This document shows positions 27,001 to 30,000 of a stretch of 64,000 nucleotides of DNA, in pieces. Each line of letters starts with the position of its first letter. The stretch's first letter is position 1. The position numbers were made by a program. The stretch lies in the IMG/VR virus record IMGVR_UViG_2531839193_000016; one strand, given 5' to 3'. The stretch comes from a virus. Taxonomy: Duplodnaviria; Heunggongvirae; Uroviricota; Caudoviricetes.

Positions 27001-30000
27001 ATAAAAAAGTTGAAGCATATGAACTCTCCCGCACTCGAACTGTATTTGCAGGCATCTGAATAATCGGAAAAATAATCATTATAGATTTCCGCATTTTCAA
27101 TCATTTTTCGATTTCTCGTCGTTACATGATTGTCCATAGCAGCCTCTTACGCTGGCAATTAACCAATTGACTTCTATAAATTAGTTGATTTGTTTGCTTT
27201 GCGGTATTCAAATGTACAATCATTCAGCACTTATGCGTTACAGCACCGTTTAAAATTAGTGATCAAACTCATAAATTTTCGCTAATGACATTTCGTGTTA
27301 TTTGTTGTATCAATTAAATAAATCAAATCGATCGTTTTTGTCGATCGATTGAGTGATAAAGATATCAACAACAAAGCAGGAGGTTATGCGGCCATGTATC
27401 GAAACATACGGTGCCGACATTGTAACAAGCTACTGGCACGAGCCAGCTTCAGTTATCTGGAAGTTAAATGTCCGCGCTGTAAAACCCTCAATCAAATCAC
27501 ATCTCAGAGCGCCACAGAGCACCCCACATACACAAGGAAATCCTGTCGTGGGGAACAGAAAGCAAGTTACATCCCGTATCATCAGCACGCCTGAACTTAT
27601 TCACTATAACGACAATATCGTCGGTTATGGCTCCCGTGAGTTACGGGTTGAGACAATAAGTTGCTGGCTGGCCCGGCTGGTCGTCGTCAATAAACATTAC
27701 AGCCATCGTTTCGTAAATAATTCCTACCTTCATCTGGGCATATTTTCAGAACGGGAGCTGGTTGGCGTAATGCAATGGGGTTATGCCCTTAATCCAAACA
27801 ATGGTGCACGCGTCGTAACTGGCACGCAGAACCGCGAATATATGGAGCTTAACCGGTTATGGCTGCATGACTGTATGCCGAGAAACTCCGAATCAAGGGC
27901 AATCAGTTACGCGCTCAAACTAATCAGACAACTTTATCCGCAGGTGCAGTGGGTTCAGTCGTTTGCAGATGAGCGTTGTGGCTGTCTTGGTGTCGTGTAC
28001 CAGGCAAGCAATTTTGATTATGTAGGCAGTCATGAAACAACATTCTATGAACTTGATGGCGAGTGGTATCACGAGATTTGCAAGAATGCAATCAAACGAG
28101 GAGGACAGCGAGGTGAACATCTGCGGGCTAATATCGACAGAGCCAGTGTTCATAAATTCCGTCAGTTTCGTTACATCCGGTTTCTGGACAAGAGAGCCAG
28201 AAAACGCCTTAACACAAAGCTATTCAAAGTCCAGCCTTACCCAAAACCACAAACAGTTAAAACTGGTTTGAAAGAGAGTGAATGAACGCTTAAAAACTCA
28301 TTCTAAAACTCAAAAGAAAAGCGCCGATTTAGTATCAAATAAGTTGCGTATCGGTGTTTTTCAGCGGTATCAAATGAAATGCAAATCGGTATCAAAAAAA
28401 TCGCCGCGCTATACCTTTCAAATCAATAAGCGGTATCCACAGACAAACCTGAAGGGAAAGGCATATTTTCAGGCGTTCTGCTCGTCCTTCTCAAAGAGTT
28501 TACTTTTCTGCATTTCCAGGATACTCCCCGTTACTTTATTCGTACCCCTTATAATGGGGTGTTAGCCAGCCAGACCCGGCATGATTACTGCCCCCAGTCG
28601 TCCATGATCCGGGGGGTGATGTCACCGGGTCTGGTGGGGCGCTGGTAACCGCTAATAGGGGTCAGGTCAGGCACTTTTGCCGGGACCGTCTGTAACGTGG
28701 ATGCCGGTACCTGCTCCCCGTGGTTATCTGGTTAACCCATATACAAGGGAGACAGAATGACCGAATCCAGCGATTACGAATCCGTCCAGGTCTTTATCGG
28801 CGTTGATGTCGGTAAAGATACGCATCACGCTGTTGCCATTAATCGTTCAGGTAAACGCCTGTTCGATAAAGCATTACCCAACGACGAAAACAAACTCAGG
28901 TCGCTAATATCTGACCTGAAACAACATGGTCAGATACTGCTGGTTGTTGATCAGCCAGCTACCATCGGTGCGTTACCTGTCGCCGTTGCCCGCTCAGAAG
29001 GAGTCCTTGTCGGATACCTCCCTGGACTGGCCATGCGCCGCATAGCCGACTTACACGCCGGTGAAGCTAAAACTGATGCTCGTGACGCTGCCATCATTGC
29101 CGAAGCTGCCCGTACCCTGCCTCACGCGCTACGCACGCTGAAACTGGCTGACGAGCAAATCGCCGAACTCTCCATGCTCTGCGGCTTCGATGATGATCTT
29201 GCCGCACAGACAACGCAGGCCAGCAACCGTATCCGCGGCCTTCTGACCCAGATACATCCGGCACTGGAGCGCGTTCTCGGTCCGAGACTTGAGCACCCGG
29301 CGGTACTCGATCTTCTCCAGCGATATCCCTCACCAGAAAAACTCGCTTCGCTGGGCTTCGCTGGGTGAGAAGAAGCTGGCAGCCCAGCTCTGCAAACTTG
29401 CGCCTCGTCTGGGTAAACGCCTTGCAGCAGACATAGCTCAGGCACTGGCCGAACAAACCGTCGTCGTTCCCGGCACGAATGCCGCTGCCGTAGTACTGCC
29501 ACGTCTGGCACTCCAGCTCATCACGCTGCGTAAGCAAAGAGACGAGGTGGCGCTTGAGGTAGAACAGCGAGTTCTTGCTCACCCTCTTTACCCGGTCCTG
29601 ACCAGTATGCCCGGAGTCGGTGTCAGGACCGCAGCCAGACTCCTCACCGAGGTCGCCTGCCGCGCCTTCGCCTCTGCCGCACATCTCGCTGCTTATGCTG
29701 GCCTTGCGCCGGTAACTCGGCGATCCGGCTCGTCAATACGCGGTGAGCATCCCTCGCGACGGGGTAATAAAGCTCTCAAACGGGCGTTGTTCCTGTCGGC
29801 CTTCGCCGCGCTCAGGGATCCGCTCTCCAGGGCTTACTACACCCGCAAAATGAGTCAGGGAAAACGACACAATCAGGCGCTTATCGCCCTGGCGAGACGA
29901 CGCTGCGACGTTCTGTTCGCCATGATGCGCGACGGGACTTTTTATACCCCGCAGGGGTTATAACATGCTTGACAACTTAATAGGGGCACCCCCTGGCTAT

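What the first reader, a model, noticed from the sequence alone, without database searches (positions are those of the whole stretch)
27321..27394. GATC-containing palindrome upstream of com/mom
CAAATCGATCG-TTTTT-GTCGATCGATTG (27324-27351) is an imperfect inverted repeat carrying two GATC sites (27330-27333 and 27343-27346), ~45 bp upstream of com. In Mu, mom expression is controlled by Dam methylation of clustered GATC sites that block OxyR binding. The same logic appears conserved here, with a divergent ORF (26844..27137) sharing the control region.
Basis: partly seen in the sequence, partly recalled or inferred. Interest (0 to 1): 0.4.

Follow-up and report, generated by a model that had tools for sequence, protein, structure and literature searches.

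The report
Dam-sensitive OxyR operator before com-mom
A short palindrome with two Dam methylation sites in front of the DNA-modification genes com-mom of a Mu-like E. coli prophage matches the methylation-sensitive OxyR repressor site known from phage Mu, agn43 and gtr; that makes it an expected control element, but here it lies on the promoter itself and Mu's phage-activator box is missing.

Summary
A perfect 9-bp inverted repeat, AATCGATCG-N7-CGATCGATT (27326-27350), carries GATC at 27330 and 27343. This is the only GATC pair spaced 13 bp in the 64-kb window. It lies 43 bp upstream of com (27394-27594), which overlaps mom (27548-28285), at the right end of a Mu-like transposable prophage of E. 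coli.

The pair corresponds to GATC2 and GATC3 of the Mu mom regulatory region. It has the GATCG-N7-CGATC form seen in the methylation-sensitive OxyR sites of agn43 (15 of 17 identical) and P22 gtr. The 13-bp pair is present in 43 of 46 com-containing Mom loci and in none of 34 com-less ones. The 52-bp block 27299-27350 is nearly invariant across 11 family variants.

The best reading is a Dam-sensitive OxyR operator that represses com-mom.

There are three differences from Mu:
- There are two GATCs rather than three.
- Mu's 27-bp C-activator and -35 segment is absent, and so is this prophage's own late-promoter box.
- The operator overlaps every candidate core promoter, which resembles agn43 and gtr rather than Mu.

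The claim that the divergent ORF shares the control region is not supported. No binding or expression data exist. This is a new variant of a known kind, of modest interest.

The parts
27326..27350 (.). Perfect inverted repeat AATCGATCG-TTTTTGT-CGATCGATT (9-nt arms, 7-nt spacer)
   Evidence: I5
27330..27333 (.). Distal Dam site (GATC); counterpart of Mu GATC2
27343..27346 (.). Proximal Dam site (GATC); counterpart of Mu GATC3; 13 bp from the first
27331..27345 (.). Proposed GATC-bearing OxyR dimer half-site ATCGTTTTTGTCGAT. It matches 7 of 10 specified positions of ATAGnTnnnAnCTAT. The 17-mer GATCG..CGATC around it (27330-27346) is 15 of 17 identical to the agn43 site. Invariant in 11 family variants.
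27300..27314 (.). Tentative second OxyR half-site ATTTGTTGTATCAAT (7 of 10, no GATC), with its start 31 bp upstream of the proximal one, the same offset as in Mu. Invariant in the family. A match this good at that offset arises by chance with p about 0.03.
27299..27350 (.). Nearly invariant 52-bp block in 11 distinct family variants. Both half-sites are invariant. The linker 27315-27330 holds 3 variable columns and 1 indel.
   Evidence: alignment A1
27285..27313 (+). Candidate sigma-70 promoter P_a: -35 ATGACA (27285-27290), 17-bp spacer, -10 TATCAA (27308-27313), predicted start near 27320. The -35 is conserved inside otherwise divergent upstream DNA. Homology with O157:H7-type prophages starts exactly at 27285. 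Not mapped experimentally.
   Evidence: sequence reading
27309..27326 (+). ATCAATTAA, identical to the last codons and stop of Mu gin, followed by a diverged 9-bp duplicate ATAAATCAA that is absent from Mu
27351..27363 (+). Hypervariable 13-nt segment between the invariant operator and the invariant leader, with at least 6 variants. It contains the alternative -10 candidate TAAAGAT (27357-27363), which resembles the Mu Pmom -10 TAAGAT.
27378..27383 (+). Shine-Dalgarno AGGAGG of com
   Evidence: invariant in all but one of the 11 variants (L034 has AGAAGG)
27394..27594 (+). com (66 aa zinc-ribbon translational activator)
27548..28285 (+). mom (GTG start, overlaps com by 47 nt). The start codon lies in a predicted CCCCAC/GUGGGG hairpin at 27522-27553.
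28413..28413 (.). Approximate right end of the Mu-like prophage, where identity with prophage copies inserted elsewhere stops
   Evidence: different host junctions

Best explanation
The palindrome is the GATC-bearing half of a Dam-methylation-sensitive OxyR operator for the com-mom operon of a Mu-like transposable prophage of E. coli.

Inferred mechanism:
- An OxyR tetramer binds about 46 bp (27300-27345). One dimer sits on ATCG-N7-CGAT (27331-27345), which holds both GATCs. The other sits on a weaker GATC-free half-site at 27300-27314.
- When both GATCs are methylated by host Dam, OxyR cannot bind and the promoter is free.
- When they are unmethylated or hemimethylated, OxyR binds, shields the sites from Dam and blocks RNA polymerase.
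- Unlike in Mu, the operator overlaps the core promoter in all three candidate geometries. Repression would therefore be by direct occlusion.
- No box for the phage late activator lies between operator and gene.

Shown here: the sequence features, the correspondence with Mu, the conservation, and the absence of the activator boxes.

Inferred, not shown: OxyR binding, the effect of methylation, and the promoter position.
For: 1. Context. com and mom are confirmed. They lie at the right end of a Mu-like prophage that encodes MuA, MuB and a C homologue. Copies sit at different host junctions in different genomes.

2. Correspondence with Mu. Mu has GATC at 1160, 1178 and 1191 of L002, spaced 18 and 13 bp. 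The window pair matches the second and third sites in spacing and flanks. Half-site-like 15-mers fall at offsets 0, 18 and 31 in both Mu and the window.

3. Same form as proven Dam/OxyR sites. agn43 has GATCGTTTATATCGATC, 15 of 17 identical to the window. P22 gtr has two such pairs, each 13 bp apart and each inside one OxyR half-site. Its tetramer sites carry both GATCs in a single half-site and are still blocked by methylation. That is exactly the arrangement proposed here.

4. Specific association. The 13-bp pair occurs in 43 of 46 com-containing Mom loci and in 0 of 34 com-less Mom loci. Only 1 such pair occurs in 217 kb of their flanking DNA.

5. Constraint. Both half-sites are invariant in 11 family variants, while the linker and the adjacent 13 nt vary.

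6. It is unlikely by chance.
Against: - There are no binding, methylation or expression data for this element.
- The distal half-site is weak: 7 of 10, with p about 0.03. Identity with Mu over the 31 columns upstream of the proximal half-site is only 13 of 31 (p about 0.055).
- Position 10 of the proximal half-site is G where the consensus and every compared site (Mu, Chuche, agn43, both P22 gtr pairs) have A.
- There are only two GATCs, against three in Mu and agn43.
- The promoter is unmapped. All three candidate -10 hexamers are poor, and the consensus scan reports no + strand promoter.
- Invariance of 27300-27314 could reflect the candidate -10 rather than OxyR.
- The exact Mu OxyR footprint could not be checked in the primary papers, which are not held.
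Confidence: 0.7

Rival explanations
1. Evolutionary relic. The palindrome descends from the Mu operator but no longer regulates anything in this prophage family. com-mom would be controlled only by other means, or would be silent.
For: GATC1 and the Mu-type distal half-site are lost. Homology with Mu stops at ATCAATTAA. The Mu C box and -35 are missing, and the candidate -10 elements are poor.
Against: Both half-sites are invariant in 11 variants, while neighbouring non-coding positions vary freely. The 13-bp pair is kept in nearly every com-mom family, even where the flanks are unalignable. A relic should decay at the same rate as its surroundings.
Confidence: 0.12
2. Operator for a phage-encoded regulator, such as the C/Mor homologue, the repressor or an unknown factor, that recognises the dyad. 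The GATCs would be incidental.
For: A perfect dyad overlapping the -35 region is typical of dimeric phage regulators. In Mu, C binds a dyad overlapping -35. A C homologue is encoded by the prophage.
Against: The prophage's late promoters share a different, C-rich box, CCGCAAA-N22-TTAnGCT. It is absent on the + strand upstream of com. The same arms occur in agn43 and gtr, which are not Mu-like and are bound by OxyR. The 13-bp pair persists across com-mom loci with Mom identities from about 78% to 100% and with otherwise unalignable upstream DNA.
Confidence: 0.07
3. RNA-level element. If transcription starts near 27320, the repeat forms a 5'-UTR hairpin that affects com mRNA stability or translation. 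Alternatively it acts as a minus-strand intrinsic terminator.
For: The hairpin is predicted at -11.7 kcal/mol on the + strand (z = -2.9) and -11.2 on the - strand (z = -4.1). The terminator scan flags the - strand, with 9 pairs and the tail TGATTTATTT.
Against: No - strand gene lies upstream for a terminator to serve, since com and mom are on the + strand. The + strand has no U tract. Only 4 of the 9 pairs are G-C. In relatives the arms beyond GATC are often not complementary, while the 13-bp GATC spacing is kept. That pattern fits a protein site, not a helix. No Rfam family matches.
Confidence: 0.06
4. Dam acts without OxyR. Methylation of GATCs inside the promoter directly alters RNA polymerase binding, or SeqA binds the hemimethylated pair.
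For: In gtr, methylation also affects promoter activity directly, possibly through GATC4 near -35. A closely spaced GATC pair is also a plausible SeqA target, on general knowledge of SeqA.
Against: This does not explain conservation of the full ATCG-N7-CGAT half-site form, or of the 46-bp invariant block. In Mu, agn43 and gtr the Dam effect runs through OxyR.
Confidence: 0.05

Closest known systems
Phage Mu mom regulatory region (three GATC sites bound by OxyR when unmethylated, upstream of the C-dependent promoter Pmom)
   Same: Same genes (overlapping com-mom) at the right end of a Mu-type transposable prophage. The window pair corresponds to Mu GATC2 and GATC3, with identical 13-bp spacing and the same flanks AAATCGATCG...GATCGATT. 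The gin-stop remnant ATCAATTAA is retained. Half-site-like 15-mers fall at the same offsets 0, 18 and 31.
   Different: GATC1 is absent: the ungapped alignment places AATT where Mu has it. The window carries an extra 9-bp duplicate, ATAAATCAA. The 27 bp holding Mu's C dyad TTAT-N6-ATAA and its -35 ACCACA are missing. As a result only 48 bp separate the operator from the com ATG, against 75 bp in Mu. Mu's operator lies at about -99 to -54, upstream of the activator site. Here it overlaps the core promoter. About 3.4 kb of cargo genes separate the gin-like recombinase from com.
agn43 (flu) Dam/OxyR phase-variation operator of E. coli K-12
   Same: The core is nearly identical: ATCGATCG-N7-CGATCGAT, with 15 of 17 over GATCG..CGATC and 21 of 25 over the core. 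A GATC-free or GATC-poor ATAG-type half-site starts 31-32 bp upstream of the proximal one. If promoter P_a is used, the operator spans about -20 to +26. In agn43 it spans about -12 to +35, taking the annotated start of isrC as +1.
   Different: agn43 has a third GATC, 19 bp upstream of the pair. It controls an autotransporter gene, not a phage gene. Phase variation is demonstrated for agn43 and untested here.
gtr operon operator of phage P22 / Salmonella (OxyR half-sites A, B, C; GATC pairs 13 bp apart)
   Same: Each gtr tetramer site has both GATCs in one half-site (GATCG-N7-CGATC), and the partner half-site has none. This is the arrangement proposed here, and methylation abolishes OxyR binding there. 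In gtr the proximal pair lies at -46 and -33. Under candidate promoter P_c (-10 TATCAA at 27363-27368) the window pair would lie at about -45 and -32.
   Different: gtr has two alternative OxyR sites, one activating (AB) and one repressing (BC), which together give ON/OFF switching. Only one site is evident here. The gtr partner half-site B is a perfect 10 of 10 match, whereas the window's partner is 7 of 10. The half-site gap is N17 in gtr and N16 in the window.

Membership tests
Dam-methylation-sensitive OxyR operator (Mu mom / agn43 / gtr type) | Two or more GATC sites inside the operator | tested here: met
   GATC at 27330 and 27343. This is the only 13-bp pair in the window.
Dam-methylation-sensitive OxyR operator (Mu mom / agn43 / gtr type) | The GATC pair coincides with one OxyR dimer half-site of the form ATAGnTnnnAnCTAT, seen as ATCG-N7-CGAT | tested here: met
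   ATCGTTTTTGTCGAT scores 7 of 10. It has the same form as the agn43, gtr A and C, Mu and Chuche sites, and follows the consensus quoted.
Dam-methylation-sensitive OxyR operator (Mu mom / agn43 / gtr type) | A second half-site at the spacing needed for an OxyR tetramer | tested here: inconclusive
   ATTTGTTGTATCAAT at 27300 scores 7 of 10, with its start 31 bp upstream of the proximal one as in Mu. It is invariant in the family. The chance probability is about 0.03 and similarity to Mu in this part is weak.
Dam-methylation-sensitive OxyR operator (Mu mom / agn43 / gtr type) | The operator is placed so that bound OxyR interferes with the promoter | tested here: inconclusive
   All three candidate promoters overlap the operator: P_a at 27285-27313, P_b with -10 at 27357-27363, and P_c with -10 at 27363-27368. 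None is mapped, and the consensus scan found no + strand promoter.
Dam-methylation-sensitive OxyR operator (Mu mom / agn43 / gtr type) | OxyR binds unmethylated but not methylated DNA; expression depends on dam and oxyR | not testable with these tools
   This needs EMSA or footprinting, and reporter fusions in dam and oxyR mutants.
Dam-methylation-sensitive OxyR operator (Mu mom / agn43 / gtr type) | The host encodes Dam and OxyR | not tested
   The locus is 100% identical to E. coli chromosomes. That E. coli has dam and oxyR is general knowledge. Neither gene was looked for in the window.
Mu-type Pmom (C-dependent late promoter of the com-mom operon) | Overlapping com (zinc ribbon) and mom genes at the right end of a Mu-like transposable phage | tested here: met
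   The host junctions differ between genomes.
Mu-type Pmom (C-dependent late promoter of the com-mom operon) | The phage encodes a Mor/C-family late activator | tested here: met
   A 140-aa Mor-family protein is encoded directly upstream of the lysozyme gene in the prophage copy of L010. The window overlaps L010 in the lysozyme gene, and L010's genome matches the com-mom region at 100%. The protein is 40% identical to Mu C. The gene lies just outside the window.
Mu-type Pmom (C-dependent late promoter of the com-mom operon) | An activator (C) dyad centred near -43.5, between the OxyR region and the -10 | tested here: not met
   Mu's TTAT-N6-ATAA segment is absent. The family's own late box CCGCAAA-N22-TTAnGCT is present at Plys and at PI (7970) but absent on the + strand of 27138-27394. 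Only 48 bp separate the operator from the com ATG.
Intrinsic (Rho-independent) terminator | A G+C-rich stem followed by a U tract, downstream of a gene on the same strand | tested here: not met
   The + strand has no U tract. The - strand hit has only 4 G-C pairs out of 9, an interrupted T run, and no upstream - strand gene.

The most novel reading that the evidence does not exclude
In this prophage family com-mom may have been uncoupled from the phage late activator. It would then run from a self-contained host-type promoter embedded in a two-GATC OxyR operator, making an agn43/gtr-style epigenetic ON/OFF switch. Mom DNA hypermodification would be phase-variable in lysogens rather than strictly a late lytic function. 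A heritable subpopulation of cells would then carry Mom-modified chromosomes and prophage DNA. The hypervariable 13 nt next to the operator might tune the switch.
Probability: 0.17. Interest if true: 0.6.

Novelty: new variant of a known kind. Interest (0 to 1): 0.33.

Why it matters
Dam/OxyR control of mom is a textbook case of methylation-dependent transcription, so finding its counterpart in a Mu-like prophage is expected. Three things add value.

- The 13-bp GATCG-N7-CGATC pair proves to be a conserved signature of com-mom operons. It is shared with agn43 and gtr, so it could be used to predict Dam/OxyR switches elsewhere.
- The com-mom module matched DNA in 233 of 5426 complete E. coli genomes.
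- Here the module has a different architecture: two GATCs, no activator box, and the operator on the promoter. This predicts regulation more like a phase-variation switch than like Mu's late promoter.

If that prediction held, a toxic DNA-hypermodification enzyme would be expressed bistably from a resident prophage. That would bear on restriction evasion and on methylome heterogeneity in E. coli.

Tried and rejected
- The consensus promoter and terminator scan found no + strand promoter. It flagged the palindrome as a - strand terminator. I rejected that reading because no gene lies there to terminate and the stem and tail are weak.
- I searched for Mu's C dyad and for this prophage's own late-promoter box upstream of com. 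Both are absent. One CCGCAAA on the - strand at 27204 faces the divergent ORF but has the wrong spacing. The 7-mer is common (16 copies in 29 kb), so I treat it as probable chance.
It was swamped by hits in unrelated, mostly non-enterobacterial genomes, which I take to be chance. Only three Enterobacterales hits were worth reading. It is not informative for the main question.
- The Rfam search of 26600-28500 gave only a sub-threshold IS102 hit at E = 0.86.
- The primary papers on the Mu OxyR footprint and on agn43 GATC requirements are not held. Mu promoter coordinates are therefore derived from the sequence together.
- An ungapped alignment of the distal operator half with Mu is barely better than chance. 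I therefore do not claim that the distal half-site is homologous to Mu's.
- RefSeq annotates a 'tRNA-OTHER' in the head-gene region of the same prophage. ARAGORN does not confirm it in the window.
- Folding the mom start region of Mu for comparison gave nothing usable.
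Full report
**Observation.** The repeat finder reports a perfect inverted repeat with arms at 27326-27334 (AATCGATCG) and 27342-27350 (CGATCGATT), separated by a 7-nt spacer. GATC lies at 27330 and 27343. Of the 186 GATC sites in the window, this is the only pair spaced 13 bp, and it is the only exact GATCG-N7-CGATC. That pattern turns up somewhere in 6% of shuffled 64-kb windows. A 13-bp GATC pair appears in 0.16% of shuffles of the 256-bp, 34% G+C intergenic region, and a 9-bp inverted repeat in 1.6%. Because GATC is self-complementary, part of the symmetry is automatic.

**Context.** The ORF at 27394-27594 is com (Pfam Zn_ribbon_Com, 7.5e-13). The ORF ending at 28285 is mom (Pfam Mom, 1.6e-77; RefSeq start GTG at 27548). 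The locus is 100% identical to several E. coli chromosomes, and parts of the 1.6-kb query match DNA in 233 of 5426 complete E. coli genomes.

The surrounding element is a Mu-like transposable prophage:
- It carries Mu-type tail and baseplate genes and a gin-like recombinase.
- Further left it carries MuA, MuB, Gam, a repressor and a Mor/C-family activator directly upstream of the lysozyme gene. That activator is 40% identical to Mu C.
- The window begins inside the lysozyme gene.
- The prophage copies in other genomes abut different host genes (dgcE, garL, xdhA, flgL), as expected for transposition.
- Identity with those copies ends at about 28413.
- Unlike Mu, about 3.4 kb of cargo separates the recombinase from com: DUF6645, DUF1378, DUF826 and a small minus-strand ORF.

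**Comparison with Mu.** DNA similarity to Mu is detectable by BLAST only inside mom, at 72%. Reading the two promoter regions side by side shows more.
- Mu has GATC at L002 1160, 1178 and 1191, spaced 18 and 13 bp, in the sequence ...cgacGATCgaATCAATTAAatcGATCggtaatacaGATCgatta.
- The window has ...tgtATCAATTAAataaatcaaatcGATCgtttttgtcGATCgattg.
- The pair therefore corresponds to Mu GATC2 and GATC3, with the same spacing and flanks.
- ATCAATTAA matches the last codons and stop of Mu gin.
- The window has an extra, diverged 9-bp copy (ATAAATCAA), and similarity to Mu ends upstream of ATCAATTAA. GATC1 is gone.
- Downstream, the 27 bp that hold Mu's C dyad (TTATgccccaATAA, centred at -43.5) and its -35 ACCACA are missing. 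Only 48 bp separate the operator from the com ATG, against 75 bp in Mu.

**Comparison with other proven Dam/OxyR sites.**
- In agn43 of K-12 the sites are spaced 19 and 13 bp. The proximal pair reads GATCGTTTATATCGATC, which is 15 of 17 identical to the window. Over the 25-bp core the identity is 21 of 25.
- In P22 gtr there are two pairs, each 13 bp apart (GATCGGTAACAACGATC and GATCGCTTGTATCGATC).
- According to Broadbent et al. (PMC2909390), each gtr pair lies within one OxyR dimer half-site, whose consensus they print as ATAGxTxxxAxCATAT. I scored sites against the 15-nt form ATAGnTnnnAnCTAT. Each functional gtr tetramer site (AB or BC) has both of its GATCs in a single half-site, and methylation abolishes OxyR binding.
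- The window's ATCG-N7-CGAT (27331-27345) has exactly this form and scores 7 of 10 against the consensus.
- A second 7 of 10 match, ATTTGTTGTATCAAT, starts at 27300, 31 bp upstream of the proximal half-site start. This is the same offset as in Mu (1148 and 1179) and one less than in agn43 (306 and 338).
- This distal half-site is only weakly supported statistically. Its chance probability is about 0.03, and identity with Mu over the 31 columns upstream of the proximal half-site is 13 of 31 (p about 0.055).

**Conservation.** Eighty Mom loci were retrieved from viral contigs.
- Of the 46 in which a com gene was found, 43 have a 13-bp GATC pair within 450 bp upstream of mom. Of the 34 without com, none does.
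- The 217 kb of flanking DNA in these loci holds a single such pair.
- The third GATC is variable. It lies 18-19 bp or 31 bp upstream of the pair, or is absent, as in the window family and in L039.
- A phage carrying an integrase gene (Chuche), whose com is followed by a gene annotated as a methyltransferase, has the same 18 and 13 bp layout.
- Within the window's own family, 11 distinct upstream sequences were aligned. Columns 27299-27350 are nearly invariant and both half-sites are fully invariant.
- The linker 27315-27330 carries three variable columns and one indel. The next 13 nt (27351-27363) are hypervariable, with at least six versions.
- This pattern is what a bipartite protein site predicts.

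**Promoter.** No start site is known, and the consensus scan finds no + strand promoter. There are three candidates.
- P_a: -35 ATGACA (27285-27290), 17-bp spacer, -10 TATCAA (27308-27313), start near 27320. It matches 9 of 12 consensus positions but lacks the final T of the -10. Its -35 is conserved inside otherwise divergent DNA. Homology with O157:H7-type prophages (95.3%) runs exactly from 27285 to the prophage end at 28413. The mobile module therefore begins at this -35. Under P_a the operator spans about -20 to +26, which resembles agn43.
- P_b: -10 TAAAGAT (27357-27363), resembling Mu's TAAGAT. It lies in the hypervariable segment and is not conserved.
- P_c: -10 TATCAA (27363-27368; CATCAA or TATCAT in relatives). 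It would put the GATCs at about -45 and -32, as in gtr (-46 and -33).
- I favour P_a on conservation. In all three cases the operator overlaps DNA that RNA polymerase must contact, so the prediction of repression by occlusion does not depend on the choice.

**Late-activator control.** In this prophage the region upstream of the lysozyme gene and the region upstream of the protease gene (window 7970) share CCGCAAAnCCnGCCC followed 22 nt after CCGCAAA by TTAnGCT. A similar box with identical spacing precedes the cargo gene at 23937. Nothing like it occurs on the + strand of 27138-27394. This tier of Mu's control therefore appears to be missing. The translational tier looks retained: com overlaps mom, and the mom GTG lies in a predicted hairpin.

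**Divergent ORF.** The ORF at 26844-27137 has no family match. It starts about 190 bp from the palindrome. It is absent from the O157:H7-type relatives, which keep the operator unchanged. It is not part of the control module.

**Rivals.** I considered four alternatives:
- a decaying relic, argued against by invariance amid variable flanks;
- a site for a phage regulator, argued against by the different late box and by identical arms in agn43 and gtr;
- an RNA hairpin or terminator, for which folding gives -11.7 kcal/mol, but there is no U tract, no gene to terminate and no Rfam match, and relatives keep the GATC spacing rather than the pairing;
- a direct Dam or SeqA effect without OxyR.

**Verdict.** The element is a variant of a well-known regulatory device, and its function remains inferred.

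Noticed in passing
window 23937-23971: CCGCAAA followed after 22 nt by TATTCT lies just downstream of the gin-like recombinase stop and upstream of the DUF6645 cargo gene. The spacing is the same as in the prophage's late-promoter boxes at PI (7970) and Plys. The cargo cassette may therefore be driven by the phage late activator, from the position where Mu has Pmom.
   Followed up: partly
window 24757-24790: The DUF6645 gene (24007-26060) is 1 bp shorter than in the otherwise identical prophage of L001. A G run is G5 here and G6 there. This gives a frameshift and a stop at 24790. It may be a pseudogene, a slippage-prone tract or a sequencing error.
   Followed up: partly
window 27351-27363: A 13-nt segment between the invariant operator and the invariant com leader exists in at least six versions among close relatives that are about 95% identical elsewhere. 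No explanation was found. It may tune promoter strength.
   Followed up: partly
window 27522-27553: The predicted RNA hairpin CCCCAC...GUGGGG encloses the mom GTG start (27548) and its ribosome-binding region. This is consistent with Mu-style Com-dependent translational control.
   Followed up: partly
window 27198-27204 (- strand): A CCGCAAA box faces the divergent ORF 26844-27137, but it lies 26 nt rather than 29 nt from a TATAGA hexamer. The 7-mer is frequent in the prophage, so this is probably chance.
   Followed up: partly
window 27252-27279: A third intergenic GATC (27261) lies inside another imperfect inverted repeat, AAAATTAGTGA/TCATAAATTTT. It is present in the window-type and CI5-type prophages but not in O157:H7-type relatives, so it lies outside the conserved com-mom module.
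   Followed up: no
window 28332-28413: Three direct copies of (G)TATCAAA start at 28332, 28366 and 28387, just inside the prophage right end at about 28413. They are plausible transposase-binding repeats. The end sequence differs from Mu's.
   Followed up: no
window 28757-29963: Two ORFs (28757-29368 and 29289-29963), which I read by eye as a split IS110-family transposase, lie about 350 bp beyond the prophage end. No family search was run on them. The window's flank differs from those of the other prophage copies examined.
   Followed up: no
window 27347-28605: There is no GATC in the 1.26 kb covering com and mom, against a window average of 2.9 per kb. This is a mild depletion next to the GATC pair.
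   Followed up: no
L173 4323-4345 (Rahnella bruchi) and L098 3097-3119 (Enterobacteriaceae MAG): The same GATCG-N7-CGATC palindrome occurs in other Enterobacterales. In Rahnella there are three GATCs spaced 13 and 19 bp, about 390 bp upstream of a 319-aa ORF whose N-terminus looks to me like a GT2-type glycosyltransferase (no family search run). These are candidate Dam/OxyR switches of the gtr kind.
   Followed up: no
L060-L093 (viral contigs): 34 Mom homologues (66-70% identical) have no com gene that my search could detect and no GATC pair. Instead mom is preceded by what looks by eye like a terminator hairpin and a structured leader. These loci are probably regulated quite differently.
   Followed up: no
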